From the NCBI RefSeq assembly GCF_009914755.1, contig NC_060925.1: a stretch of 64,000 bases of DNA; one strand, written 5' to 3'. Made by a program: the position numbers and the translations under genes. Positions 39,634 to 60,790 of this stretch are shown here, piece after piece. Below the pieces are notes generated by a model, which saw only the letters and a list, made by a program, of their open reading frames with translations, was not told the DNA's origin and searched no databases. Source of the stretch: the human T2T-CHM13v2.0 reference genome, Homo sapiens. Numbering within the stretch: position 1 is the stretch's first letter; each line of letters opens with the position of its first letter.

Positions 39634-39871
39634 CCCACTTCAGTCTTCTAACAACAACAACAAAAAATTCCTATTTTTGACATTAAAAATAAAGGCACAA
39701 GTTAACTTCTTATATTGGAATTATAATGAATAAGTTTAAAAAGAATTTCCATATGTATATATACACACACACATACATATAAATGTGTTTTTAAAAAGCA
39801 ATTATATAAAAGGCAATGGTTCCCATGTTCACCCCCTTTGCCAACATTCAAGCAAAGAAAGGCTTATTTAC

Positions 39872-39979
39872 CATTTCAACAGATCCATCCCCTGGGTAAA
39901 ATAAAAGCTCATAACGTCGAAGAAGTGAAGCATTTGGATCATACCACTCTGCAATGAAAACGAATCTTTCACTATGATT
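39872..39979 (-). CDS. NME7: NME7 exon 2 (108 nt, phase 0-0), NHSERFVFIAEWYDPNASLLRRYELLFYPGDGSVEM, first part of DM10 domain
   Basis: Acceptor tctttgcag|AATCAT, donor GAAATG|gtaaat; peptide is in ORF 39848..40063. Confidence 0.97.
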
Positions 39980-40504
39980 CTGCAAAGAAAGACAGAAGAA
40001 TTTTAACACTAACATATAAAGAACAAGCACTCTTCTGTAAGTCACACAAAATGAAATTACCAATATGCAAGAAACAAAATTACTTCTACCTATTATATTG
40101 AATGTTTCTGCTTTTCAACAAAGTATCAGTTATCAACACACCCTCAGCAATATTTCCTTTCAATTTCTCACTAAATACCCTTAGATATCTCAAAGATGAC
40201 TTATGGATTGCTTTTTACTTTACAGCCATCTAATCATCCTGAGTAAATTAACGTTTTCTGAGAACATGAGCTCCTGATTTTACTATTGTAACAATTCAGT
40301 CCTTCTGAAAGCAAGTTTACATACAGACTATCAATAAACTAATATAAGAATAAATTTCTGAGGAGAGCTCTCAATTATATGAAGTTTTGACTTCCCTAAA
40401 TTTGAGAATCTAGTAGTATCAGAATATTACCATTAAAATTATAGCAAACATTTTTTTTTCCTTAGTAATTTCATATGATAGTATCTTTTTATAGAAATAG
40501 AGAA

Positions 40505-40942
40505 TGTGTTAGTCTAGGACCTCTGAAAATGAATGTGAAGACAAGATTGAACATACAAGAATTTCATTAAGGAAAATTCCCGTAATATAAAATGATGAGG
40601 GAGCCAAGGAAGACTAGAAAAGCCGATAAAAACAATAGAAGTTTGACACAGAGTGGTGGAGAGATGCAAGGAAGGTTAAGTGGAATCATCCCACATTGCT
40701 ACACCCTCTAAGAAAGGTTCTGTAAGCCCATCAGGAAGTGCTAGAGCCAGGTGACTCCCAAGGACAGGGAGGGGCCAGCTTTAGTATCCCTGCTCCTCTC
40801 AATCAGTGGCTGGGAGCAGCCTTTGGGAAGCAAGTGCTCAGCACAAAAGCAGCAGTGGATTTCAGAGAACAGCAGCTGGGACCCTTGGTCACTTAGGTTG
40901 CCTGTAGTTGGAGGTCTGTGAAGTACACTCTTAGGGCTACCA
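40505..40942 (-). mobile_element. LTR16-family ERVL solo LTR
   Basis: tgtgttagtctaggacctctga...agacaagatt...caagaatttcatt and cagtggctgggagcagcc resemble reversed LTR16. Confidence 0.6.
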
Positions 40943-43900
40943 CAGAGAGCAAAAAATGAAAAAAATAAGTCAAAGATGGGTCCTTTTCCCTTGACTATTG
41001 AGCAGGACTTCCCATCATATATGTTAGTAAAAATACCCTCGCCCCAAAGATCTTCATTATAATAAGCAAATAAAAGCATAGGGAAGAAGGGAATCTAGGA
41101 GTTTTATTGCTAATTCTGGATTTGCCATCTGATGCTCTGGTTAGGGAAAATTTGGGGGTTCTTTTTAAGTTAATAATTGACTTATAAATTCTAATGGTAG
41201 AAGTTGTGTGTCTAATGATGTTTATAATATATCCATAAACTATAACGTAGATGACACTTTTATTTTTAAGACACTTTTATTTTTCCCACAATCATCCAAA
41301 GACATATTTAAACCATGCTGATTACTCAAGAGAAAATAAATGTAAAATAAGAGACATACTATGACATTTGTAAAAGCCTTTCATCATATATATTTTTCAT
41401 ATTGATTATAACAATACAGCTTTTTTGAGTTTAGGTTTCACTGTGCATTCTAGTATTGTACTCACCTACAAATAAAAATTTAAATATTAGTAGATTATTA
41501 AAATTTTTACTATCCATAATAAAATATTTATTTAAATACATAATTGAAATGTTGCCTTCACTAAAATAAATATAAAATAGAAGAAATGACACATCTAACT
41601 AAAGCAAATGAAAAATCCACGAAACCTGGTACTTCCATTTATCCATGTAGCCTATCCACCAAACCTGCCAACCACACTCTTTAATTCTGAATTGGGCAGC
41701 AGAATTTTGCACTATACTCTATCCAGAAAAGAGTTTTAATACAAAGAAAATAAACTGAGGAACTGTTGCTTCTGGCTATGACAAAGTAGCTCACAGCAAA
41801 CCAATGCTACTTCTAAGAACAACTAGAAAAGTAGGATATCAAAGATTTGGAGAGCTTTTAAGGCAGCCAGGATCTGAGGATCCAAGATCCAGAAAGACAG
41901 GAAGCCCATTGAAGTGAAACCAACATTCATTGCGTTGTCTTTACTCGTAAGACATGTGCTGAGTCTCAAGTCAAGCAGACAAGTGACTGAGAAGCCTAAG
42001 AAGCTGGTAGAGGGAGCCCACCAAGGGACAGAGAAACAGGTACAAAAGTGAGCTGAAACCTGTGCTTGTTCAGTAGAGCTTTTGGAAACGAACTCCCAAG
42101 CTAGTGCTGTTTCCTCTGTGGGAAAAGGTTTATTACTCCAAGTACAAATTATATTCAAACTTGATTTAAACTTAACTTTCTGGTTTACCTTTATAGTAAA
42201 AACTGTGTTTACTTCCTAGAGTTAAAAGATGTACCTGGAGATATAACAGTGGTACATCTGGACTTGGGATAAAACATCACAGTGAGGTTGGCCTTTCAAC
42301 TACCTGCCTGACACACATGCACATACACACACCATCCAGACCAAAGCCACCCTTAAAATTTAAAGAAAATTTACTTTTCAGCTTTGTTGAGCCAAATCTA
42401 GAAAAAAGGAGGAACTTGGTTTCCTTCCTCAAATGCTATTAAAGCTATATATCATTTTGTTTTAACTCTTCACTTTATGGATAAAGAAACTGAACTCCAG
42501 ATAATATAAATGACTAGCATAAGGTCACAGAGCTGGTTAATAACTGAGCCAAAACTGGAAACTACATTTCCTATGACTCAGATATTTCCATATCACTAGC
42601 CTTCCAGGGCCAACTCAAGAGAGAGAAACTAACACTTTAGTAGCACATAGATACACCTTGAGTTGTCTGTCACAGATGCTCTGATGAGAATGCCACAACC
42701 TAATGATTACACAGACAATCATTAGCTCCTTCTTCCCTGAAGATTCCAACTTCTATCAAAAGTACTTTATGAGGAACATTTAAAGATTACACTGCATCAA
42801 AAAGAGACTTTCTTAAAGAAGCCAAATCATTTTTCCTCTTTTGAACATTTTAAATATAAGTTATACATAATAAAAGAGTTGATCCCTCACACATAATCAC
42901 ACTTTGTTCCAGAAATCTTAAAGTCTTAAAGGAAAATGTGTATTATTATACCAGAAGTCTTGAAGTGACTTGAACTGGACAATGAGGTATTATTATACCC
43001 AGAAGCCTTAGTATCTTAAAGTCTTAAGGTCTCTGTCTATACAGAGAGAACTTTCCTAGAGCACCAGTCTTACTCGATGGTAAGTAACGTAAACAATTTT
43101 TACATTGCAACATGCATATATGTGTATATAAATATATGTTATTGAGTGGAATGTAAAATTCATATAAGTTTTATAACAAAAAATAGGTGATTTTATGGAA
43201 ATATTGACCAATATTGGAATTGCAAGTGAAATTATATTTGAAGATTAAACAAGTCTTTGGAGAAATAAATCACACCACCACCTCTCTCTGCTACTGTTTA
43301 AAGGAAGGTCCAGCTTTACAGTGGATCATATGAAATTAACAATCTTTTCCATACAGATATACTTTAAAAAATCCAAACTCTCAGTTCAAGAGTAAGTTTA
43401 AGCGTATGTTACCAAGCAAAATTGTACCTTGGCCTCATTTCAATAATACTGATCAGAAAGCTATTCCATTCCTGATGATACTATGATCATCAATCAACAA
43501 ATACCAACTGGGCCTGGTACTACTAGCATGCTGAGTGCAACGAGCACACCAATCTGATAAGTCTGCTGCTGCTGGTGCTACTGCTGCTATCATTTGCTGG
43601 CAGCCTACAGCAAGAGACATGGCCCTGAAATGTGTTGCTTAAAGAGAAGATCCAGGAAACTATAAAGGGGTTTTTTGGAGGGGGGGATTATGGAGGAATA
43701 TTTGTGAGAGTCCAAAAGACCTGGGCAAGACTTAATGTCTCTAACTCTCATTTTCCCCATTTGAAAAATGGAAACAGTACTTTCTTCATAAGGTAGTTTT
43801 GGGGATTAAATGACTTAGTTTACATGAAGCACTTAGGATTTCTGTTGCCTATGTCTCCCAAAGCGATGATGGTGGCTTATAGGTCCACCTGTGACTTTAG

Positions 43901-44599
43901 AACTGCATTGTACACACTCATCTCCCTCACTGATCTTTTTCTGACATACAAGAAGAGCAACTCTGGATTTGTGATGATGCAGCCTCAGCTGCAACTAACC
44001 CTAGGTAAATAGTTTTTTAAAGGTCTTTGCAGAAAAAAATCAGTATGAAGGAAAAAGGGATTTATGATGGACAAAAAAATGACTAAAATTATATTTATAA
44101 ATGAAAATAAAAACTATTGAACATATAATACTAGGTAAATTTTTTTGTAAAGGATATATCATATTAATAAATCAGAGCCAAAGTACAATTCTTACCTTTT
44201 GGGGAGTTCAAACAGTTATAGATCTGTTTTTGTCAATAAAAATTTTAGTAACAATTTTCTTTTTAAATTTTATAACACTATCTGTTGCACATTCATCATT
44301 AGTTTTATAATGGACTTAGGGTGCCCCTTAAAGCAGATATAGCTTAGATCATAATACCCAAGACTTTTCAAATACATGTAAAGCCTTCCTAAGAAGGATG
44401 GGTACAAACATGCCAAGATTGCAGACTACAGTAAATACCTAACTTTTCAGTGCCCAGACACAGATGAACATCCACAAGTATCAAGATCATCCAGGAAAAT
44501 ATGAACTTACCAAATAAACCAAATAAGGCACAAGGGACCAATCCTGAAGAAACAGAGATATGTGACCTTTCAGACAGAGTATTCAAAATAGCTCTGCTA

Positions 44600-44893
44600 T
44601 AGGTTTCAAAATCAACCCTGGCTAGGGGCCTGAAGCAAACCAGTTTAGTGCTAACAACAACAACAAAAAAATCTGATCTAATTTTTTTCACTTTACTTTC
44701 TCTCCCACATATTCCTTATTTCTCACTCTACCGCTCCAAGCTTCAACTTCCTTGTTCCTAAATATTTTATGAAAAAGTTCAAAACACTTTTTCTTCTGGA
44801 TAAGTAATATTTGTGTTTTCTTAATGTCATGCTGTGGTTTGAATTTTCAAATTTCATGAAAATTTGTGTTTCCTGAAAAAAAAAAAAAAAAAA
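44600..44893 (+). pseudogene. Orphan retroposed fragment (short processed-pseudogene 3' end or orphan transduction)
   Basis: Non-L1 sequence ending in A18 (44876-44893), flanked by aaaatagCTCTGCTA / aaaaaacCTCTGCTA; host L1 resumes after it. Confidence 0.7.
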
Positions 44894-45875
44894 CCTCTGC
44901 TAAGGAAACCCAAGAAATTCAAGATAACACAGAGAAGAAATTCAGAATTCCATCAAATAAATTTAACAATGAGATTGAAATAATTAAAAAGAATCAAGCA
45001 GAAATTCTGGAGCTGAAAAATGCAAAAAGCGTACTGAAGAAGGCATCAGAGTCCTTTAATGGCAGAATTGATCAAGCAGAAGAATTAGTGAGATTGAAGA
45101 CAGGTTATTTGAAAATACACAGAGGAGACAAAAAAAGAATAAAAAACATGAAGCACACCTATAGGATCTAGGAAATGGGCTGGAAAGGGCAAATCTAAGT
45201 TATTGGTCTTAAAGAAGAAGTAGAGAAAGAGATAGGGGTAGAAAGTTTATTCAAAGGGCTAATAACAGAGACCTTCCCAAACCTAGAGAAAGATATCAAT
45301 ATCCAAATACAAGACGATTATAGAAAACATTAAACAGATTTAATCCAAAGAAGACCACCTCAAGGCATTTAATAATCTAACTCTCAAAGGTCAAGGATAA
45401 AGAAAGAATTCTAAAAGCAGCAAGAGTAAAGAAGCAAATAAACAATGGAGCTCCAATACATCTAGCAACAGACTTTTCAATGGGAACTTTACAGGCCAGG
45501 AGAGAGTGTCATTACATATTTAAAGTGGTGAAGGAAAAAAAGACTGTTACCCTATAATAGTATATTTAGTTAAAATATCCTTCAAACATCAAGGAGAAAT
45601 AAAGACTTTCCCAGACAAACAGAAGCTGAGAAATTTCATCAACACCAGACCTGTTCTATGAGAAATGTTAAAGGGAGTACTTCAATCAGAAAGAAAAAGA
45701 CATTAATGAGCAACAAATAATCACCTGAAGGTACAAAACTCACTGGTAATAGTAAGTACACAGAAAAACACAGGATATTATAACACTGTAACTGTGGCGT
45801 ATAGAGAAATGCAAATCAAAACCACAATGTGGTACCATCTCACACCAGTCAGAATGGCTACTAAGAAGTCAAAAT

Positions 45876-46233
<358 letters not shown>

Positions 46234-49200
46234 CTATATGCCAATAAACTGAAAACTCTAGAAGAAACAGAAAAATAACCAGATATATACAATCTACCAA
46301 GATTGAACCAGGAAGAAATTCAAAACCTAAAGAGACCAATAACAAGTAATGAGATCAAAGCCATAATAAAGACTCCCAGTAAAGAAAAGTCCAAAAAATA
46401 GAGGAGGAGGGACTACTTCCAAACTCATTCTACGAGGCCAGTATTACCCTGATACCAAAACCAGACAATGACACATCAAAATAAATAAATAAATAAAACT
46501 ACAGGTCAATATCTCTGATAAATATTGATGCAAAACTTGTCAACAAAATACTAGCAAACTGAATTCAGCAATACATTAGAAAGATCATTCATTATGACCG
46601 AGTGGGATATATCCCTGGGATGCAAGGATGGTTCAACATAAGCAAATCAATCAATGTGATATGTGATATCAAAAGAATGAAAGATAAAAACCATACAATC
46701 ATGTCCATTGATGTTGTAAAAGCATTTGATAAAACTCAACATACCTTCATGATGAAAACTCTCAAAAAACTGAATATAGAAGTAACATACCTCAACATAA
46801 TAAAAGCATATTTGACAAATATGACAGACCCACAGCTAGTATCATACTGAATGGGGAAAAACTAAAAGCCTTTCCTCTGAGATCTGAAACATGACGAGGG
46901 TGCCCATTATCACTACTGTTGTTCAACATAATAATGGAAGTCCTAGCTAGAACAATCAGACAAGAGAAAGATATAAAGGGCATCCAAATTGAAAAGGAAG
47001 AAGTCAAATTATCCTTGTTTACAGATGATATGATTTTATATTTGGAAAACCCTAAAGACTCCACTGAAAGACTCTTAGAACTGATAAATTCAGTAAAGTT
47101 GCAGGATACGAAATCATACAAATATCAGTGGTATTTCTATATGCCAACAGTGAACAATCTTAAAAAGAAATTTTAAAAAGTTATCCCATTTACAATAGCC
47201 ACAAATAAAATAAAATACCTAAGAATTAACAAAAGAAATGAAGATCTCTACAATGAAAACTATGAAACACTGATGAAATAATTTGAAAAAGACCAAAAAA
47301 AAAAATGGGAAGCTATTCCATGTTCATGGAATTGGAAGAATTAACATTGTTAAAATGTCCACACTACCTAAAGCAATCTACAGATTCAATGCAATCCCTA
47401 TCAAAATACCAATGTTGTTCTTCAAAGAATAGAAATAGAAAAAACAATTCTAGAATTTATATGGAACCACAAAAAACTCAGAATAGCCAAAACCATCCTA
47501 AGCAAAAAGAACAAAACTGAAAAAATCACATTAACTGACTTCAAATTATACTACAGAGCTATAGTAACCCAAATATCATGGTACTGACATAAAAACAGAC
47601 ACATAGACCAATGGAACAGAATAGAGAACCCAGAAAAAATCCACACACCTACAGCGAACCCATTTTCAACAAAAGTGCAAACAAGATACACTGGGGAAAA
47701 GACAGCCTCTTTAATAAATGGTGCTGGGAAAACTAGATGTCTATATGCAGAAGAATGAAACTAGACCCCCTATCTCCAGCCATATACAAAAATAAAATAA
47801 AAATGGATTAAAGTCTTAAATCTAAGACCTCAAACTATGAAACTACTACAAGAAAACATGGGAGAAAATCTCTAGGACATTGGTCTGGGCAAAAATTTCT
47901 TGAGCAATGCCCCACAAACATAGGCAATCAAAGCAAAAACGGACAAACAGGATCATATCAAGTTAAAAACCTTCTGCACAGCAAATAAAACAATCAACAA
48001 AGTGAAGAGACAACCCACAGAATGGGAGAAAATATTTGCAAACTACCAATCTGACAAGGGATTAATAACCAGAACACCTAAGGAACTCAAACAACTCTAC
48101 AGGAAGAAATCTAATAATCCAGCTACAAAATGGGCAAAAGATCTGAATAGATATTTCTTAAAAGAAGACATACAAATGGAAAATAAGCATATGAAAAGGT
48201 GTTCAACATCACTGATCATCAGAGAAATGTCATCAAAACTACAATGAGATATCATCTTATCCCAGTTAAAATGGCTCTTATCCAAAAGACAGGCAATAAA
48301 AAATGCTGGTGAGGATGTGGAGAACAGGGGACCCTTGTACACTGTTGTTAGGAATGTAAATTAAAACAACCACTATGGAGAACAGTTTGAAGGTTTCTCA
48401 CAGAACTAAAAATGATCCAGCAATCCCACTGCAGGGTATATACCCAAATAAAAGGGAATCAGTATATTGAAGAGATATCTGCACTCCTATGTTTGTTGCA
48501 GCACTGTTTACAATAGCTAAGATTTGAAAGCAACCTAAATGTCCATCAACAGATGAATAAAGAAAATGTGGTACATATACACAATGAAGTACCATTAAGC
48601 CATAAAAAAGAATGAGATCCAGTCATTTGCAACAACAGGGATGGAACTGGAGATCATTATGTTAAGTGAAATAAGCTAGGCAAAGAAAGACAAACATCAC
48701 ATGTTCTCACTTATCTGTGGGTTCTAAAAAATGAAAAAAAATTGAACTCATGGACATGGAGAGTAGAAAGATGGTTATCAGAAGTTGGGAAGAGTAGTGG
48801 GAGGCTGTAGGGAAGGTGGGGGTGAATAACAGGTACAAAAAAAATAAAATTAAAAAGAATGACTAAGACCTAATATTTGATAGCAGAGTAGGGTGACTGT
48901 AGCCAATAATAACTTAATTGTACATTTTAAAATAACTTAAAGAGTGTAACTGCATTGTTTGTAACAAAAGGATATCAAAAGGATAAATGTATCAAAAGGA
49001 TAAATGCTTGAGGGGACAGAGCACATTCACCATGATATGCTTATTTCACATTGCATGCCTGTATCAAACTATCTCATGAACCCCATAAATATATATATCT
49101 ACTATGTACCCATAAACATTTAATATTTAAAAAAAAAAGAAATTTGCCAAGATCACACAGCTTATAAACAGAGGTGAACCCAGGCAGCTTGACTCCAGAT

Positions 49201-49804
49201 CTGCTCTTAGACACTCTCCTTAACTGTGGCAAGAAGGGATGGAAACTCCCTTCTGAGAGACACTGGACTAAGCAGCCTATATAAGCTGCAGTGTTTGCTC
49301 GATTTCTAGAAACAGCAACTATATTCTTTCAATTTAACCCCCTATTAAGACAAATCAGGTTTTAAAAACCAACACAACCACAACAATAAAAATCAGGACA
49401 TACTTATCAGACTTGTAATTCTAACAGTGCACTGAAAAAAATGTACATTGCATTTTTGTAATGCTGTATTTTAGGAAAAATTACTTCACAATAGGCAGCA
49501 AAATATTTTTGTTCATACAAAAGTGCTCCCTTCTTTAAATCATACTAAATGGATTCCATAATGCATGATGGAGAAATATCTTAAACTAACTAGAAGTCTT
49601 ATTTTCATGATTTGCATGTTGAAGGGTCAGTAACTAGTCAATCTATTTCAAGCCAAGTATCTGCTTCTGTTTGACTTCAAAGACATTCTGGAGTAAATTA
49701 TGTAGATGATAAAGGTTACAGTTCAACAAGCTTCTAAAGTTTAGTCTGAGTCTCCATGAACCCACATTCACCTTGAATGACATTATAATAGAAATCAACA
49801 GCAT

Positions 49805-51294
49805 GAGTAATCAAAACAGCATGGTATGGGTAGCAAAACAGACACATACACCAATGGAGCAGAATAGAGACCTCACAAATAATACCACACATCTACAACC
49901 ATCTCATCTTTGACAAACCTGACAAAAACAAGCAATGGGGAAAGGATCTCCTATTCAGTAAATGGTGCTGGGCAAACTGACTAGCCATATGCAGAAAAAT
50001 GAAACTGGAACGCTTCCTTACACTTTATAGAAAAATTAACTCAAGATGGATTAAAGACTTAAATGTAAAACCCAAAACCATAAAAACCCTGGAGGAAAAC
50101 CTACACAATACCATTCAGGACATAGGAATGGGCAAAGACTTCATGACAAAAAGGCCGAATGCGATTGCAACAAAAGCAAAAATTGACAATAGGATCTAAT
50201 TAATTAAACTAAAGAGCTTCTGCACAGCAAAAGAAACTATCATCAGAGTGAACAGGCAACCTATAGAATGGGAGAAAATTTTTGCAATCTACCCATCTGA
50301 AAAGGTCTAATATCCAGAATTTACAAGGAACTTAAACATATTTATAAGAAAAAAACAAACAACCCCATCCAAAAGTGGGCAAAGGATATGAACAGACACT
50401 TCTCAAAAGAAGACATTTATGTGGCCAACAAACATGAAAAAAAGCTCAACATCACTAATCATCAGAGAAATGCAAATCCAAACCACAATGAGATACCATC
50501 TCACACCAGTTAGAATGACGATTAAAAAGTAGGAAACAAGGTGCTGGCGAGGCTGTGGAGAAATAGGAATGCTTTTACGTTGTTGGTGGGAATGTAAATT
50601 AGTTCAGCCATTGTGGAAGACAGTATGGTGATTCCTCAAGGATTTAGAACCAGAAATACCATTTGACCCAGTAATCCCATTACTGGGTATATACCCAAAG
50701 GAATATAAATTATTCTACTATAAAGACACATGCACACATATGTTTTCTGCAGCACTATTTACAATAGCAAAGACATGGAACCAACCCAAATGCCCATCAA
50801 TGATAGACTGGATAAAGAAAATGTGGTACATATACACCATGGAATACTATGCAGCCATAACAAGGAATGAGATCATGTCCTTTGCAGGGACATGGATGAA
50901 GCTGGAAGCCATCATCTTCAGCAAACTAGCACACGAACAGAAAACCAAATACTACACATTCTCACTCATAAGTGGGAGGTGAACAATGAGAACACATAGA
51001 GAGGGGAACAACACATACCAGGGCCTGTTGTGGGGTGGGGGATGAGGGAAGGGAACTTAGGGGACGAGTCAATAGGTGCAGCAAATCACCATGGCACATG
51101 TGTACCTATGTAACAAACCTGCACGTTCTGCACATGTATCCTGATTTTTTTAGAAGAAATATATATAATATATATGTTTATATATTTTATATATATTAAA
51201 TAAATAATATATATTTAATATATACTTTTATATATTAAATATATATTTATATATATGTTTCAGAAGAGATATATATATATACATATATATAGAA
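49805..51294 (+). mobile_element. 5'-truncated L1PA whose tail has become an AT microsatellite (~51150-51294)
   Basis: ORF2 remnants (49999, 50740); 15-bp TSD agaaatcaaca(g/c)cat at 49790-49804 and 51295-51309. Confidence 0.94.
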
Positions 51295-51414
51295 AGAAAT
51301 CAACACCATCTAAGAACCTGCTCCCTCAAGCCAGCTGCTTCCAGTAAGGGTGAGTGAAAAGTGGCTTCTAAACAAGGAAATTTTCACTTTGCCTTGAACA
51401 TTCTGAGAACATAG

Positions 51415-53121
51415 TGTGTCCGGAATTGGTGGGTTCTTGGTCTCACCGACTTCAAGAATGAAGCCGTGGACCCTCGCAGTGAGTGTTACAGCTCTTAAGG
51501 TGGCGCATCCGGAGTCTGTCCCTTCTGATGTTCAGATGTGTTCGGAGTTTCTTCCTTCTGGTGGGTTCGTGGTCTCGCTGGCTCAGGAGTGAAGCTGCAG
51601 ACCTTTGCGGTGAGTGTTACAGCTCTTAAGACAGCGCGTCCGGAGTTGTTCGTTCCTCCCGGTGGGCTCGTGGTCCCGCTGGGCTCAGGAGTGAAGCTGC
51701 AGATCTTCGCGGTGAGTGTTACAGCTCATAAAAGCAGCATGGACCCAAAGAGTTAGCAGTAGCAAGATTTATTGCAAAGAGCGAAAGAACAAAGCTTCCA
51801 CAGTGTGGAAGGGGACCTTCCCTTCCACAGCTAGCTCAGGCAGCCTGCTTTTATTCTCTTATCTGGCCCCACCCACATCCTGCTGATTGGTAGAGCCGAG
51901 TGGCCTGTTTTGTCAGGGCACTGATTGGTGTGTTTACAATCCCTGAGCTAGATACAAAGGTTCTTCACGTCCCCATCAGATTAGTTAGATACAGAGTTTG
52001 GACACACAGGTTCTCCAAGTCCCCACCAGAGCAGCTAGATACAGAGTGTCGATTGGTGCATTCACAAACCTTGAGCTAAACACAGGGTGCTGATTGGTGT
52101 GTTTACAAACCTTGAGCTAGATACAGAGTGCCGACTGGTGTATTTACAATCCCTTAGCTAGACATAAAGGTTCTCCAAGGCCCCACAAGAGCAGCTAGAT
52201 ACAGAGTGTCCATTGGTGCAATCGCAAACCTTAAGCTAAACACTGGGTGCTGATTGGTGTATTTAAATCCCTGAGCTAGACATAAAGATTCTCCAAGGCC
52301 CCACCAGAGCAGCTAGATACAGAGTGTCGATTGGTGCACTCACAAACCTTGAGCTAGACACAGGGTGCTGATTGGTGTGTTTACAAACCTTGAGCTAGAT
52401 ACAGAGTGCCGATTGGTGTATTTACAATCCCTGAGCTAGACATAAAGGTCCTCCAAGGCCCCACCAGACTCAGGAACCCAGCTGGCTTCACCCAGTGGAT
52501 CCCGCACCGGGGCTGCAGGTGGAGCTGCCTGCCAGTCCCAGTGCCGTGTGCCCGCACTCCTCAGCCCTTGGGTGGTCGATGGGACTGGGCGCCATGGAGC
52601 AGGGGGCGGCGCTTGTAGGGGAGGCTCGGGCTGCACAGGAACCCACGGAGTGGGTGGGAGGCTCAGGCATGGCGGGCTGCAGGTCCCGAGCCGTGCCCCG
52701 TGGGAAGGCAGCTAAGGCACGCGGTGAGAAATCGAGCGCAGCGCCGGTGGGCTGGCACTGCTGGGGGACCCAGTACACCCTCCGCAGCTGCTGGCCCGGG
52801 TGCTAAGTCCCTCATTGCCCAGGGCCAGCAGGGCTGGCCGACTGCTCCCAGTGCAGGGCCCGCCAAGCCCACGCCCACCCGGAACTCCAGCTGGCCCGCA
52901 AGCGCCGCACACAGCCCTGGTTCCCGCTCACGCCTCTCCCTCCACACCTCCCTGCAAGCTGAGGGAGTGGGCTCTGGCCTTGGCCAGCCCAGAAAGGAGC
53001 TCCCACAGCGCAGCGGTGGGCTGAAGGGCTCCTCAAGTGCCGCCAAAGTGGGAGCCCATGCAGAGGAGGTGCCAAGAGCGACTGAGGACTGTGAGGACTG
53101 CCAGCATGCTGTCACCTCTCA
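51415..53121 (-). mobile_element. LTR12C (ERV9) solo LTR, 1707 bp, same orientation as NME7
   Basis: Minus strand starts TGAGAGGTGACAGCATGCTGGCAGTCCTC and ends ACCAATTCCGGACACA; perfect 4-bp TSD ATAG (51411-14, 53122-25); GC-rich 5' U3, ~40-bp enhancer repeats, three U5 repeats. Confidence 0.95.
51845..52470 (-). promoter_or_regulatory. ERV9 U3 enhancer/promoter: nine CCAAT boxes, GATA motifs, GC-type box, AATAAA TATA-equivalent
   Basis: ATTGG occurs nine times between 51880 and 52420; minus strand reads GGGTGGGGCCAGATAAGAGAATAAAAGCAGGC (AATAAA at 51850-51855). Activity is not shown by sequence. Confidence 0.75.
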
Positions 53122-55136
53122 ATAGCAGATCATTAAAAATGTATTATCTACACAGTAGGCAAACAAGCATAGTAATTCACATTGCTTTACTTAGATGTCA
53201 CAGTGATAAGTACAATAGAAATAAAAACACAAGGAAAAGGTTTATATTATCCCATTGTCAGAGGCTAGATTTTAAGCACTAACTTGTTTTGTACCTATCC
53301 TTTATCAAATAGTCTTCCTCCAGGGCTTCCTTCAAAGACCAAGAAATTTTCTTACATTGAATAGTGTCAAATATTAACCTTACTTTAGTGTGACCATAAC
53401 CAGTTTTGAGCCTGTCCAGGTTGTTCACAGAGACCTATTCCTTCTTCATAAATCTATCTTGTAAAGACAGACAGAAGGCAAACTCAAGTAAAAAGGGTCT
53501 TCACGTGTGAAGAATCTAATTTGTCAACTCCAACTTAGCATTTCTCATTAATAAAGGAAAACAAATTATAACAGAAGGAAAAGTTAGGTGAATCATTAAA
53601 TTTAGTTAGCTATCCTATTTCACTTAAATTCTTTAAACACTAAGTATACCATTGCAATCACTTTTTGCTTTTAAAAAATTACAGTTTAAAATTTCTTTTG
53701 AAAAAATATTTTCAACAGAATTCCACATATTTCCAAGATTGTGTTTTTTAATGTTACTTCAAGACAATATCTCAGAAATAGAATGCATTGTTTTTGTGTT
53801 TACAGAAAAAAGTCAGTGATGCAATGAACAGAACACAAACACCTGTATTTCCCCAACTGTGATGTTTAAGATGCACTTTCAACTTAACTCCTGCTAAATT
53901 TTGTTAGTGAAAAATGCCAGAAAAGAACCATTTCCACAGTATGAATATATAGCAGGAAGCTGGTCAAACAAGATGGAATCGTTTAAAAAGGCACACATCC
54001 AGTTTCAGGGGAGAAACAGCTTTTTAAACTTCTTCACCTTGGGCCCCATAATCTTGAAAATTTTTGCTCTCTGACTTCTGCAGATCACTGCCCAGTGAAA
54101 AAACAATGCCACACACCATCTATCAAGGGAAACCTCTCTAAAAAGGTTGAACTTTCCTTTAGACATCTCAAAGAAAACACAGTTATTATGAAGTCTTCCC
54201 AGACCAACCCCAGCCAATGTATATTTCTGTTACTTGGAATTTGATTTTCACAGAATTTCAGAGATCAAAGGAACATTAACAATGAGGAAACAGAAGGTCA
54301 GATAAGTTAAATGACTTGGCAAAAATGATGTTGACTTGTTAAGTGGCATAGTTTAACAAGGACCCTTGTTTCTTCACGGGCAGACTGATGTTCCCACAGT
54401 AGAACACTGGGTTGTCGTCTAATTTTGTATTATACAATACAAATTGTCTCTCTAATAAAATTATGAAATTCTCAAAGAAGCTGTAACATTTATTTCTCTT
54501 GAAACTTCAAGGTGGCTCTCCTAGTTCTGGGACCATAAAATACTCAAATAAATATTTACCAAAATAAAGATCTAAAGGAGTAAATAAATGTGCACAGCAA
54601 TAGATCTTGACAAAATGGCAAAAATCCACTCTTCCATATTCAAAAAACTCCCCCCCAAACTCTAATATTTGTTTGTAAGTCTGTTTACTTATATTTCCAG
54701 AAAGATTCTCAAAGAGGACATCTTTTCTTACTTTTTTGGTAAGTATGGGCTTCTCTGACTACCATCTTAAAAGAATATACTTGATAAAGTATTAAGTAAC
54801 TCCAGGACATGAGTTACCCATGAGAGATCACTTGCCAACAATTAACTGAACCACAATATTCCAAAAAGAGAGATGGCTCTTAATCAATAAATAAATTCTG
54901 GGTCTAATTATAATGGCATGAAAATATTTAAGCAATTATAAACTACTCAATGTTAAGATAGAAAATTGACTTTATTATTGAGCTAGAAATCAAATGATAA
55001 CACAGAAAATAACAATATAAATGCTAACCTTGAGTTTTTCCAAAAAAGCAACTGTTGTCAAGGTCACAAACACACTGAGCCAAGTCTTGTTATTCCTTTA
55101 TCCCATAGCTATTGTACTACTTGGTCTGAAAGTGGA

Positions 55137-55609: not shown

Positions 55610-57955
55610 TGACATGGTTTGGCTCTGGGTCCCCAGCCAAATCTCCTCTTGAATTATAATCCCCATGTGTCAAGACAGGGGCCTGGTGGAAGGTGATTGG
55701 ATTACAGGGGCAGTTTCCCCCATGCTGTTCTTGTGATAGCGGGTTCTCACGAGATCTGATGGTTTTAAAAGTGGCAGTTTCCCCTGCACATTCTCTCTCC
55801 TGCCGCCTTGTGAGGAAGATGCCTGCTTCCCTTTTGCCTACTGCCATGATTGTTAACTTTCCTGAGGCCTCCACAGCCATGCAGAACTGTGAGTCAGTTA
55901 AACCTCTTACCTTCAAAAATTACCCAGTTTCAGGTATTCTTTACAGCAGTGTGAAAATGGACTAATTCAGAGAATTGGTACCAGCAGAGTGGGGTACTGC
56001 TATAAAGATAACCTGACAATGTGGAAGCATCTTTGGAACTGGGTAACAGGCAGGGGTTGGAAAAGTTTGGAAGGCTCAGAAGAAAAGAAGATGTGGGAAA
56101 GTTGTGGACTTCCTAAAGAATTGTTGAATGGTTTTGACCAAAATGCTGACAGTGATATGGACAATGAAGTCCAGGCTGAGGTGGTCTCAGATGAAGATGA
56201 GAAACTTAGTGGGAACTGGAGTGAAGGTCACTCATGCTATGCTTTAGCAAAGAGACTGGCGGCATTTTGCCTCTGCCTTAGAGATCTGTGGAGCTTTGAA
56301 CTCAAAAGATGATTTAGGGTATCTGGCAGAAGAAATTTCTAAGCAGAAAAGCATTCAAGAGGTGACCTGGCATTTTCTGAAAGCATTCAGTCAGATGTAT
56401 TCACAGAGATGGTTTGAGATTGGAACTTATGTAAAGGTTTGGAAAACTTGCAGCCTGGCCCTGTGGTAGAAAAGAAAAACCCATTTTCTAGGGAGGAATT
56501 CAAGCTGGCTGAAGAAATTTGCATAAAAAATGAGGAACGGAATGTTAATACCAAGACAATGGGGAAAATGCCTCCAGGCCGTGTCAGAGATCTTCGTGGC
56601 AGCCCCTCCTATCACAGACCTGGAAGGCTAGGAGAGAAAAATGGTTTTGTGGGCTAGGCCTGGGGCCCCACTGCTCTGTGTGGCCCTGGGGCGTGACACC
56701 CTAAGTCTCAGTCACTCCAGCTCAAGCCGAGGCTAAAAGGGGCCAAGATACAGCTTGGGGCATTGCTTTAAAGGGTGCAAGCCCCAAGCCTTGGCAGCCG
56801 ACACATGGTGTTGGGATTGCAGGTACGCAGAAGACAAGAGCTGAGCTTTGGGAGCCTCCACCTAGATTTCAGAGGATGTATGAAAACACCTGGATGTCCA
56901 GGCAAAAGTCTGCTGCTGGGGCAGAGCCCTCATGGAGAGCCTCTACTAGGGCAATGCAGAGGGAAAATGTGGGGTCAGGGTGCCCACACAGAGTCCCCAC
57001 TGGGGCACTGCCTGGTGGGGCTGTGAGAAGAGGGCCAATGTCCTCCAGACCCCAGAATGGTAGATCCACTCACAGCTTGCACCATGTGCCTGGAAAAGCC
57101 AGGGGCACTCGATGCCAGCCTTTGAAAGCAGCCATGGGGACTGTCCCCTACAGATCCACAGGGAAGGAGCTGCCAATGCCCTGGGAGCTCACCTCTTCCA
57201 TCAGCATGCCCTGGGTGTGAGACATGGAATCAGAGGAGACCATTCTGGAGCTTTAATGAATTAAAAAAAAATTTTTTTAACAAGTACCCTGCCAGGTTTT
57301 GGACTTGTATAGGGCCTGTGGCCTCTTTGGTTTGGCCAATTTCTCCCATTTCGAATGGGAACATTTACCCAATGCCTGTGCCCCCACTGTATCTTAGAAC
57401 TAACTAACTTGCTTTTGATTTTATAGGCTCACAGGTAGAAAAGACTTGCCTTGTCTCAGATGAGACTTTGGACTTGGACTCTTGAGCTAATGCTGGAATG
57501 AGTTAAGGCTTTGGGGGACTATTGGAAAGGCATGATTGGTTTTGAAATTTGAAAAGGACATGAGATTTGGGAGGGGCCAGGGGTGGAATAATATGGTTTG
57601 GCTCTGTATCCCCACCCAAATCTCATTTCGAATTGTAATCCCCACATGTTGAGGCAGGGACCTAGTGGGAGGTGACTGGATCATGGGGGCAGTTTCCCCC
57701 ATGCTGTTCTCATGATAGTGAGGGAGTCCTCATGAGATCTAATGGTTTTAAAAGTGGAAGCTTCCCCTGCACATTCTCTCTCTCCTGCCACCTTGTGAAA
57801 AAGATGCCTGCTTCCCCTTTGCCTTCTGGCATGATTGTAAGTTTCCTGAGGCCTCCGCAGCCATGTGGAACTGTGAGTCAATTAAACTTCTTTTCTTTAT
57901 AAATTACCCAGTCTCACGTAGTACCTTTATAGCAGTGTGAACATGGACTAATACA
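55610..57955 (+). mobile_element. Full-length THE1 (THE1C/D-like) MaLR: LTR 55610-55969, internal 55970-57588, LTR 57589-57955
   Basis: Two similar ~360-bp LTRs; internal MaLR ORF remnant (ORF 55989 ...FDQNADSDMDNEVQAEVVSD); polypurine tract before the 3' LTR; TSD agtat/agtac. Confidence 0.9.
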
Positions 57956-58430
57956 AGTACATATATATACTTGTATTAGTATATATATATATACAAGTAC
58001 ATATATATATAGTATATATATACAAGTACATATATATAGTATATATATATATACAAGTACATATATATAGTATATATATATATACAAGTACATATATATA
58101 GTATATATATATACAAGTACATATATATATAGTATATATACAAGTACATATATATATAGTATATATACAAGTACATATATATAGTATATATATATACAAG
58201 TACATATATATATAGTATATATATATACAAGTACATATATATAGTATATATACATATATACAAGTACATATATATAGTGTGTATATATATATACAAGTAC
58301 ATATATATAGTGTGTATATATATATACAAGTACATATATATACTTGTATTAGTATATATATATATATACAAGTACATATATATACTTGTATTAGTATATA
58401 TATATATATATATGCATATATATATATACA
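57951..58430. repeat. AT-rich minisatellite, ~27-43 bp unit ACAAGTAC(AT)nAGT(AT)n, 14 copies of caagtac
   Basis: Counted directly from the sequence. Confidence 0.95.
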
Positions 58431-58529
58431 TACCTGTGTCCAGCTAGGACTCAGAATGATCCTTTGGGATAGAGGTCCTTCCTGTCTCACATTGCCAGTT
58501 CCACACGATTTTTTGTTGGGGAGGGAATG

Positions 58530-60790
<2,261 letters not shown>

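What the first reader, a model, noticed from the sequence alone, without database searches (positions are those of the whole stretch)
39872..53121. Sense-oriented intact LTR12C 11.4 kb upstream of exon 2: candidate ERV9 alternative promoter for NME7
Seen: a complete TSD-flanked LTR12C points towards exon 2. It keeps nine CCAAT boxes, the GATA/AATAAA core and a possible donor CCGCAAAG|GTCTGC (exon would end at 51603). Most other younger LTRs and L1s here are antisense to the gene. Known: LTR12C elements are NF-Y-dependent promoters, active in testis and induced by DNMT/HDAC inhibitors, and they can splice into host exons; NME7 is a centrosomal/ciliary protein. Inference: an LTR-to-exon-2 transcript would bypass the exon-1 ATG, leaving Met37 (last codon of exon 2) as the first in-frame start and giving a DM10-truncated protein with both NDK domains. 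Caveat, seen: the LTR exon has two short uORFs (ATGs at 51740 and 51729) and exon 2 has four out-of-frame ATGs, so the RNA may translate poorly or act only as a regulator. I cannot tell whether such a transcript is already annotated.
Basis: partly seen in the sequence, partly recalled or inferred. Interest (0 to 1): 0.72.

Follow-up and report, generated by a model that had tools for sequence, protein, structure and literature searches.

The report
Ordinary solo LTR12C in NME7 intron
This is a real but ordinary remnant of the ERV9 retrovirus (a solo LTR12C) lying in the first intron of NME7 in the gene's own direction, and nothing seen here shows that it drives NME7.

Summary
Window 51415-53121 (minus strand, 1707 bp) is a complete solo LTR with TG...CA ends and a 4-bp target duplication. 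It is colinear end to end with six loci that print names LTR12C, and it lies in sense 11.4 kb upstream of NME7 exon 2. Pairwise distances and print put its age at roughly 10-20 million years, typical for the family.

The promoter reading is not supported, and not excluded. No RefSeq NME7 transcript starts in the LTR, and no held paper pairs NME7 with LTR12. The upstream promoter motifs are intact, but the published start-site motif is not: a rewrite seen in no other scored copy replaces it. The proposed U5 donor occurs seven times inside five RefSeq LTR12C-initiated first exons on chr1 and is used in none. All five splice at or beyond the LTR end, and no strong donor follows this LTR. The predicted Met37 protein is already RefSeq isoform b, made through an alternative acceptor in exon 2. 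It sits behind an overlapping four-ATG uORF and was not detected as protein in four cell lines. Expression data, which I could not reach, would decide the question.

The parts
53122..53125 (.). Target-site duplication, copy on the LTR's 5' side (CTAT on the minus strand)
   Evidence: The same 4 bases stand at 51411-51414. A 4-bp TSD is exact in 4 of 6 assessable named LTR12C loci.
51415..53121 (-). Solo LTR of ERV9, LTR12C type, 1707 bp, TG...CA ends, sense to NME7
   Evidence: Colinear over query 1-1707 with the published LTR12C loci at GBP2, ZFP90 and IRGM, and in pieces with those at GBP5, TP63 and RAE1 (names and lengths from Table 1 of PMC11853044). The genome search gave 4242 first-look candidates, of which 40 were scored; 23 other full-length rows showed 86-91% identity.
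52443..53121 (-). GC-rich 5' extension of about 680 nt, the feature shared by LTR12C, D and E
   Evidence: The ADH1C LTR12 matches only from query 630 onward. The DHRS2 LTR12D matches 1-249 and then 630 onward. Print: a roughly 600-nt 5' extension in LTR12C/D/E, almost exclusive to hominoids.
52033..52442 (-). U3 enhancer array, 41-bp unit, 10.2 copies, carrying most of the CCAAT boxes and the TATC (GATA) sites
   Evidence: TRF, period 41, with a 118-bp super-period. (CCAAT positions). (8 GATA/TATC sites in the whole LTR). Print: 5-17 repeats of about 41 nt.
51848..51894 (-). Proximal promoter: last U3 CCAAT box, G-rich box, AGATAAG and the TATA-like AATAAAAG
   Evidence: This segment reads like the other 23 aligned copies. 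AATAAAAG is present in 23 of the 28 other copies examined.
51786..51835 (-). Start-site zone. The published 12-nt LTR12C start motif is not intact and the next stretch is rewritten and shorter. It now holds a perfect 10-bp inverted repeat (arms 51804-51813 and 51820-51829).
   Evidence: this is the only one of 24 aligned rows with the 4-column gap; the inverted repeat; the next best genome match to the 71-mer is 88% or less among 40 scored of 431 candidates. Motif taken from PMC11853044. RefSeq starts at homologous places in GBP5, TLCD4, CYP2J2 and LINC01647 lie 1-29 nt after the motif.
51768..51773 (-). AATAAA polyadenylation signal of the R region
   Evidence: The 40-mer around it has 2218 genome matches at up to 3 mismatches, against 0 for the control.
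51415..51767 (-). U5 with three imperfect repeats. It holds the two short uORFs (ATGs at 51740 and 51729) and the candidate donors after 51603, 51472 and 51447.
   Evidence: ATGs, stops, GT contexts. (self-matches about 102 nt apart). (the same 9-mer goes unused 7 of 7 times in five RefSeq first exons).
51411..51414 (.). Target-site duplication, copy on the LTR's 3' side (CTAT on the minus strand)
39872..39979 (-). NME7 exon 2 (108 nt). It has a strong acceptor and an alternative acceptor at 39948, four ATGs in one +1 frame, and Met37 as its last codon (39874-39872).
   Evidence: Exon 2 encodes positions 3-37 of 89 of Pfam PF25364 (PH_NDK7_N), and exon 3 encodes 38-87.

Best explanation
This is an ordinary solo LTR12C, left when the two LTRs of an ERV9 provirus recombined. 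The provirus entered intron 1 of NME7 in an ape ancestor roughly 10-20 million years ago. It carries no viral gene.

Its U3 enhancer and proximal promoter motifs are as well kept as in its relatives. Like many LTR12C copies, it can probably bind NF-Y and could be opened in germ cells or by DNMT or HDAC inhibitors. That step is inferred, not shown.

It most likely makes no regular contribution to NME7 mRNA:
- The start-site motif has been overwritten by a private change.
- U5 offers only weak donors, which comparable annotated loci skip.
- No strong donor follows the LTR.
- No annotated transcript starts there.

Any RNA that did reach exon 2 would encode only the already known isoform b, behind several upstream ATGs. 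The sense orientation is tolerated, not evidence of use.
For: - Identity: end-to-end colinearity with named LTR12C loci, whereas LTR12 and LTR12D loci lack parts of the 5' extension. TG...CA ends and a 4-bp TSD. A 41-bp U3 array.
- Age: with CpG columns removed, the copy's own-branch distance is 2.0-2.4%, against a median of 1.9-2.5% for the other 23 copies. With all sites it is 4.3-5.3%. [quoted passage not shown]
- No use in annotation: 3 RefSeq NME7 transcripts, none starting in the LTR, and no functional element in the window.
- Base rates on chr1: 3 of 79 copies with an intact TATA-like box and start motif have a same-strand RefSeq start. None of the 6 that lie in sense inside protein-coding genes does. 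1 of the 25 other copies with an exact R-region match does.
- Start site: the motif is not intact, and this is the only one of 24 aligned rows with the shortened, rewritten stretch. The rewrite is private among the copies scored. 1014 genome places keep the box plus the exact motif.
- Donors: 5 of 5 RefSeq first exons that start in LTR12C-type copies end 0, 81, 193, 274 and 389 nt beyond the LTR end, and pass over 7 internal copies of the proposed donor 9-mer. No donor matches 8 or more of 9 consensus positions in the 1.5 kb after this LTR.
- Product: isoform b is already annotated. A four-ATG uORF overlaps Met37. NME7b protein was not detected in four cell lines.
- Print: 0 papers hold NME7 together with LTR12 or LTR12C. 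2 papers hold NME7 together with LTR: one I read and found irrelevant, the other is a fish genome paper that I saw only in the listing.
Against: - The U3 array, proximal CCAAT box, G-rich box, GATA site and TATA-like box are all present.
- The copy has 8 GATA/TATC sites, at or above the named active loci, which have 1-7. Print links the number of such sites with start-site activation.
- The start motif is not indispensable. The annotated promoters at ZFP90, IRGM and RAE1 lack it too, and only 8 of the 28 other copies examined have it exactly.
- LTR12C is the most frequent LTR source of chimeric gene transcripts in testis and oocyte, and genes near active copies are enriched for cilium and dynein terms. 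NME7 is a ciliary protein most abundant in testis.
- RefSeq is conservative.
- The 20 comparison copies were the ones most like this copy, and the own-branch method mixes in differences between source elements, so the date is rough.
Confidence: 0.7

Rival explanations
1. The LTR is a germ-line or drug-inducible alternative promoter. Its RNA splices from U5, or from just beyond the LTR, into exon 2, bypasses the exon-1 ATG, and yields NME7 from Met37 or a regulatory RNA.
For: - The LTR lies in sense upstream of a coding exon with a strong acceptor.
- The U3 and proximal promoter motifs are intact.
- LTR12C tops the LTR-driven chimeric transcripts in testis and oocyte. 101 of 872 expressed LTR12C loci drive one.
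- NME7 fits the cilium theme of that study.
Against: - There is no RefSeq transcript of this kind and no paper.
- The start motif is overwritten.
- The proposed donor is unused 7 of 7 times elsewhere.
- There is no junction donor like the one at GBP5, and no strong donor within 1.5 kb.
- Two uORFs in U5 and a four-ATG uORF overlapping Met37 stand in the way of translation.
- NME7b protein has not been detected.
Confidence: 0.15
2. The LTR acts as an NF-Y/GATA-type enhancer for NME7 or a neighbouring gene without starting transcripts of its own.
For: - It has ten CCAAT boxes and 8 GATA/TATC sites in a 41-bp array.
- In print, most LTR12C copies activated by a targeted activator gained the enhancer mark H3K27ac and only 20% also gained H3K4me3.
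- Named LTR12C enhancers exist at HBB and AXIN1.
Against: - RefSeq lists no enhancer or silencer in the window.
- The motifs are family-wide, so they do not single out this copy.
- Nothing here measures chromatin.
Confidence: 0.1
3. The sense LTR interferes with NME7 pre-mRNA, ending some transcripts early at its own AATAAA or trapping splicing.
For: - An AATAAA signal in R lies in sense inside intron 1.
- A paper listed (PMC1794541, abstract start only) reports an antisense bias of intronic LTRs and attributes it to selection against sense copies.
- On chr1 the ratio in protein-coding genes is 1 sense to 7 antisense for exact R-region matches, and 6 to 11 for intact-motif copies.
Against: - No RefSeq transcript ends in or near the LTR.
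- The review knows of no LTR12 used as a polyadenylation site.
- The copy has persisted in an essential ciliary gene.
Confidence: 0.05

Closest known systems
LTR12C promoter of GBP5 (hg38 chr1:89272453-89273890; Table 1 of PMC11853044)
   Same: It is the same family, has a 4-bp TSD, and lies in sense upstream of the gene's coding exons. The RefSeq start lies just after the start motif, at the place homologous to about window 51820.
   Different: GBP5 keeps the exact start motif. Its first exon ends on the last LTR base, and the donor GTAAG is supplied by the duplicated target site. Here the same junction has no GT. The GBP5 LTR-initiated transcript is curated in RefSeq. No such transcript exists for NME7.
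LTR12C alternative promoter of TP63 (germ-line isoform; Table 1 of PMC11853044)
   Same: It is the named locus most like this copy, at about 90% over the aligned parts. It even has the same CTAT duplication. It is a testis-active alternative promoter upstream of coding exons.
   Different: The TP63 copy has only 3 CCAAT boxes but an exact start motif, and the RefSeq gene start falls in it. The NME7 copy is the reverse: a full array and a damaged start motif.
NME7 isoform b (RefSeq NM_197972.3; NME7b of PMC4072575)
   Different: It is made from the normal promoter through an alternative acceptor at 39948, not from the LTR. It removes positions 1-37 of the 89-position N-terminal PH/DM10-type domain, so the domain is cut, not removed.
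ZNF676-controlled LTR12C copies near cilium genes such as DNAH11 (PMC8767690)
   Same: An LTR12C with the 5' extension lies inside a cilium and flagellum gene that is most abundant in testis.
   Different: NME7 is not named in that paper's main text (0 occurrences). Its tables of chimeric transcripts are supplements that I could not open.

Membership tests
ERV9 LTR, subfamily LTR12C | Retroviral LTR ends (TG...CA) with a short target-site duplication | tested here: met
   TG...CA ends and CTAT on both sides. The same 4-bp length is exact in 4 of 6 assessable named LTR12C loci.
ERV9 LTR, subfamily LTR12C | End-to-end likeness to loci that print names LTR12C | tested here: met
   Query 1-1707 aligns with GBP2 (1591 bp), ZFP90 (1671 bp) and IRGM (1651 bp). 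GBP5, TP63 and RAE1 align in pieces. The locus lengths equal those in Table 1 of PMC11853044 to within one base.
ERV9 LTR, subfamily LTR12C | 5' extension of about 600 nt, present in LTR12C, D and E and absent from LTR12 | tested here: met
   The ADH1C LTR12 matches only from query 630 onward. Print.
ERV9 LTR, subfamily LTR12C | Not LTR12D (a variant of LTR12C with indels) | tested here: met
   The DHRS2 LTR12D (1023 bp) lacks query 250-630 and matches the rest at 73-84%.
ERV9 LTR, subfamily LTR12C | Not LTR12E (also carries the 5' extension) | not tested
   No named LTR12E locus was at hand. Print gives 2453 LTR12C copies against 104 LTR12E copies, so LTR12C is far the likelier.
ERV9 LTR, subfamily LTR12C | U3 array of about 41-bp repeats (5-17 copies) with CCAAT and GATA-type sites | tested here: met
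   Period 41, 10.2 copies. 9 CCAAT boxes in U3. 8 GATA/TATC sites.
ERV9 LTR, subfamily LTR12C | TATA-like AATAAAA about 30 nt before the start site | tested here: met
   AATAAAAG spans 51855-51848.
ERV9 LTR, subfamily LTR12C | Start-site motif GCCAGCAGTGGC, with its GCCA....TGGC symmetry (PMC11853044) | tested here: not met
   It matches at 9 of 12 positions and the symmetry is lost. The motif is exact in 8 of the 28 other copies examined and the symmetry is kept in 16 of 28. This is a state of the copy, not a bar to family membership.
ERV9 LTR, subfamily LTR12C | Classification by Dfam or RepeatMasker | not testable with these tools
   The annotation file gives masked stretches without family names. 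51410-53000 is masked.
LTR-derived alternative promoter of a host gene (chimeric transcript) | A transcript start inside the LTR, on the gene's strand | tested here: not met
   None of the 3 RefSeq NME7 transcripts starts there. CAGE and RNA reads could not be reached.
LTR-derived alternative promoter of a host gene (chimeric transcript) | A splice junction from the LTR-initiated exon into a host exon | tested here: inconclusive
   There is no such junction in RefSeq. The candidate donors match 6 of 9, 4 of 9 and 6 of 9 consensus positions (my count on the contexts). The homologous donor is unused 7 of 7 times elsewhere.
LTR-derived alternative promoter of a host gene (chimeric transcript) | Sense orientation upstream of a coding exon with an open frame | tested here: met
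   The LTR is on the minus strand, like NME7. Met37 opens the frame through the window's exons.

The most novel reading that the evidence does not exclude
This hominoid-specific LTR12C is a germ-line (testis or oocyte) alternative promoter of the ciliary gene NME7. It would belong to the ZNF676/LTR12C network that print links to cilium genes. It would give 5'-variant RNAs that encode the N-terminally cut NME7b or that tune NME7 output.
Probability: 0.12. Interest if true: 0.45.

Novelty: already known. Interest (0 to 1): 0.2.

Why it matters
If the LTR did drive NME7 in germ cells, an ape-specific viral remnant would be shaping the expression of an ancient cilium and centrosome gene whose loss causes ciliary disease. 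It would also give a source for the little-studied short isoform.

As the evidence stands, it is one of about 2,500 LTR12C copies, with no sign of use. The product it was proposed to make is already annotated by another route. The practical value of this check is negative: sense orientation and a full set of CCAAT boxes are family-wide traits, not signs of co-option. The U5 sequence that looks like a donor is not the one that annotated LTR12C-driven transcripts use.

Tried and rejected
- Other repeats' orientation. There were 0 hits, so the remark stays unchecked. The long ORFs at 57914-58776 lie in AT-rich, low-complexity DNA.
- Relaxed start-site pattern. The pattern gave 1672 places, but it also picks up Alu-like sequence, as the listing shows. 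I did not use it for shares.
- Hairpin at the RNA 5' end. I asked whether the rewritten start zone makes a much more stable hairpin. It does not. The fold is -20.4 kcal/mol, against -19.2, -14.3 and -20.1 for three canonical copies. Only the shape differs.
- Age from all sites. CpG decay inflates that figure (4.3-5.3%), so I used the distances with CpG columns removed. The rates used to turn distance into years (1.0-2.2 per billion years per site) are recalled, not taken from a call.
- Papers not held. The DNMT/HDAC-inhibitor start-site paper (PMC6005702) and the ERV9-driven gene screen (PMC4815979) were not held. Their gene lists, and Supplementary Tables 1-3 of PMC8767690, may name NME7. I could not see them.
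- Presence in other apes. No primate genome is reachable with these tools, so this could not be tested.
- What I saw of each paper:
  - PMC11853044: outline, sections 3, 4, 5, 7 and 10, and passages.
  - PMC8767690: passages and sections 5 and 9.
  - PMC11317136: abstract, outline and passages.
  - PMC5134097, PMC5085097, PMC7641743, PMC13256974, PMC4072575, PMC8346284: passages only.
  - PMC1794541, PMC7930395, PMC11047736: search listing only.

Full report
**What is there.** On the minus strand, window 51415-53121 is a 1707-bp element that begins with TG and ends with CA. The four bases CTAT flank it on both sides. My first bound of 51414 was one base too long.

From 5' to 3' it has these parts:
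- a GC-rich stretch of about 680 nt;
- a tandem array with a 41-bp unit in 10.2 copies at 52033-52442;
- a proximal promoter with a CCAAT box, a G-rich box, AGATAAG and AATAAAAG;
- an AATAAA at 51773;
- a U5 with three imperfect repeats.

There is no ERV9 internal sequence on either side, and no second LTR12 copy in the window. It is therefore a solo LTR and carries no viral gene. I translated nothing viral, and there are no breaks to count.

They all check out.
- There are nine CCAAT boxes in U3 and a tenth in U5.
- The GATA and TATA-like core is present.
- Donor-like sites follow 51603 and 51472.
- Two short uORFs start at 51740 (4 codons) and 51729 (14 codons).
- Exon 2 has four ATGs in the +1 frame, and Met37 is its last codon.
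- The LTR lies 11,436 bp from exon 2.

**Family.** The genome search gave 4242 first-look candidates, of which 40 were scored. It returned 23 other full-length rows at 86-91% identity. A 40-mer from the R region has 2218 matches at up to 3 mismatches, against 0 for the reversed control.

I took names from print, using Table 1 of the LTR12 review (PMC11853044). I fetched those places in the same reference by their genes.
- The LTR aligns over its whole length with the published LTR12C copies at GBP2, ZFP90 and IRGM.
- It aligns in colinear pieces with the shorter ones at GBP5, TP63 and RAE1.
- The lengths I found equal the published ones to within one base.
- The LTR12 at ADH1C lacks the first 630 nt or so, and the LTR12D at DHRS2 lacks about 250-630.
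- A 4-bp duplication is exact at GBP2, GBP5, TP63 and RAE1, and matches 3 of 4 bases at ZFP90 and LINC02818. IRGM could not be judged because my 3' bound was off.

I had no named LTR12E copy to compare. Print counts 2453 LTR12C copies against 104 LTR12E copies. The name LTR12C stands, with that one gap.

**Age.** I aligned this copy with 20 of the 23 full-length copies and with three named ones. I computed pairwise Kimura distances only, with no consensus.
- The part of those distances that belongs to this copy's own branch is 4.3-5.3% on all sites.
- It is 2.0-2.4% after dropping every column where any copy has CpG.
- The other 23 copies have medians of 1.9-2.5% on the same CpG-free columns, so this copy is of typical age.
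- At recalled neutral rates of 1.0-2.2 per billion years per site, that is about 9-24 million years.

The method tends to overestimate, because differences between source elements are counted in. The comparison set was also the one most like this copy. In print, the 5' extension is almost exclusive to hominoids (about 20 million years), and ERV9 stopped spreading about 6 million years ago. I put the insertion at roughly 10-20 million years. I could not look at other apes.

**Is it used?** RefSeq has three NME7 transcripts in this window. None starts in the LTR, and no enhancer, silencer, promoter or CAGE feature is listed there. No held paper has NME7 together with LTR12 or LTR12C. Two papers have NME7 together with LTR. 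The one I read is irrelevant, and the other is a fish genome paper that I saw only in the listing.

The base rates on chr1 are low.
- Of 79 LTR12 copies that keep the TATA-like box and the exact start motif, 3 have a same-strand RefSeq start within 150 bp: LINC01647, a CYP2J2 model and TLCD4.
- None of the 6 that lie in sense inside protein-coding genes has one: SMAP2, AGBL4, FGGY, MR1, IVNS1ABP, TLR5.
- Of the 25 other chr1 copies with an exact R-region match, one (LINC02818) has a start inside the LTR.

Sense copies in protein-coding genes are the minority but not rare. The ratio is 1 to 7 among the exact R-region matches and 6 to 11 among the intact-motif copies.

**The promoter itself.** Everything upstream of the start site reads like the relatives. 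The count of 10 CCAAT boxes is the family norm of 8-11. The 8 GATA/TATC sites are at or above the 1-7 of the named active loci.

The start site is different. The review places the usual LTR12C start within a 12-nt motif whose inverted symmetry was reported as needed for correct initiation.
- This copy matches the motif at 9 of 12 positions and has lost the symmetry.
- The stretch that follows is rewritten. It is 4 bases shorter than in all 23 other aligned copies.
- The next best genome match to a 71-mer across it is 88% or less, among 40 scored of 431 candidates. The change is therefore private among the copies scored.
- It created a second copy of a nearby 9-mer and a perfect 10-bp inverted repeat at 51804-51813 and 51820-51829. 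This looks like one templated event.
- The predicted RNA fold is no more stable than in canonical copies.

Genome-wide, 1014 places keep the box plus the exact motif. This counts against the promoter reading, but only moderately. The annotated promoters at ZFP90, IRGM and RAE1 also lack the motif, and only 8 of the 28 other copies examined have it exactly.

**The donor.** I looked at every RefSeq first exon on chr1 that I found starting in an LTR12C-type copy: GBP5, LINC02818, TLCD4, a CYP2J2 model and LINC01647.
- All five end at or beyond the LTR's 3' end, by 0, 274, 81, 389 and 193 nt.
- That 9-mer is family-wide, present in 17 of the 20 copies.
- At GBP5 the donor GTAAG is supplied by the duplicated target site right at the junction. 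At NME7 the same junction has no GT.
- In the 1.5 kb after this LTR, no GT matches 8 or more of the 9 consensus positions.

RefSeq does not list every isoform, so use of a weak U5 donor is not excluded. It is not what comparable loci do.

**The product.**
- Exon 1 contributes only the ATG, so a transcript entering at exon 2 would first meet an in-frame ATG at Met37.
- That protein is already RefSeq isoform b, made from the normal promoter through an alternative acceptor at 39948.
- Print describes it as lacking 36 N-terminal residues. On blots of HEK293T, HeLa, RPE-1 and U2OS cells only the long form was seen.
- Exon 2 encodes positions 3-37 of the 89-position N-terminal domain (Pfam PF25364) and exon 3 encodes 38-87. 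The domain would be cut, not removed.
- The four exon-2 ATGs belong to one +1 frame that stops in exon 3, after the Met37 codon. This is an overlapping uORF, and one of its ATGs has a strong context.

**Verdict.** The element is real, is correctly named, and is ordinary for its family. The promoter idea is reasonable in kind. LTR12C is the leading LTR source of chimeric transcripts in testis and oocyte, and a published study ties active copies to cilium genes. For this copy, however, the sequence and the annotation speak mildly against it, and its predicted product is not new. Only expression data can settle the matter.

Noticed in passing
L002:2795-2815 (chr1:89115794-89115814), GBP5 LTR12C 3' junction: The donor of GBP5 exon 1 sits exactly at the LTR/flank junction. 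The 4-bp target duplication GTAA plus the next base supplies GTAAG, so the insertion site itself made the splice donor of the LTR-driven exon.
   Followed up: partly
window 51804-51829: A private rewrite of the LTR's start zone made a perfect 10-bp inverted repeat with a 6-nt spacer and a second copy of a nearby 9-mer. It looks like a single templated (fold-back or slippage) mutation, not several independent changes.
   Followed up: partly
window 39640-44802: The 5.2 kb or so directly upstream of NME7 exon 2 holds no masked repeat of 100 bases or more. The rest of the stretch up to the LTR is densely masked. Two ORFs of about 111 aa there (40741-41079 and 41823-42158, minus strand) have no Pfam match.
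   Followed up: no
window 58000-58400: A very AT-rich, low-complexity stretch (GC 14-16%) gives long stop-free ORFs on both strands. These are artefacts of composition and have no Pfam match.
   Followed up: partly
G000:C23:116659191-117712592 (chrX): 12 of the 65 match rows for this LTR fall within about 1 Mb of chrX, several of them adjacent to one another. This suggests a duplicated block rich in LTR12C copies.
   Followed up: no
G000:C1:174455154-174461351 (TNN intron): Two exact R-region matches lie 6.2 kb apart in the same orientation, antisense to TNN. They are probably the two LTRs of one ERV9 provirus or a duplicated pair. I did not fetch them.
   Followed up: no
window 39872-39948 with exon 1 (NM_197972.3): By my own reading of the frames, in the RefSeq isoform-b mRNA the exon-1 ATG falls into the same +1 frame as the four exon-2 ATGs. 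The annotated Met37 start would then lie behind five upstream ATGs of one overlapping uORF. That fits the report that NME7b protein was not detected.
   Followed up: partly
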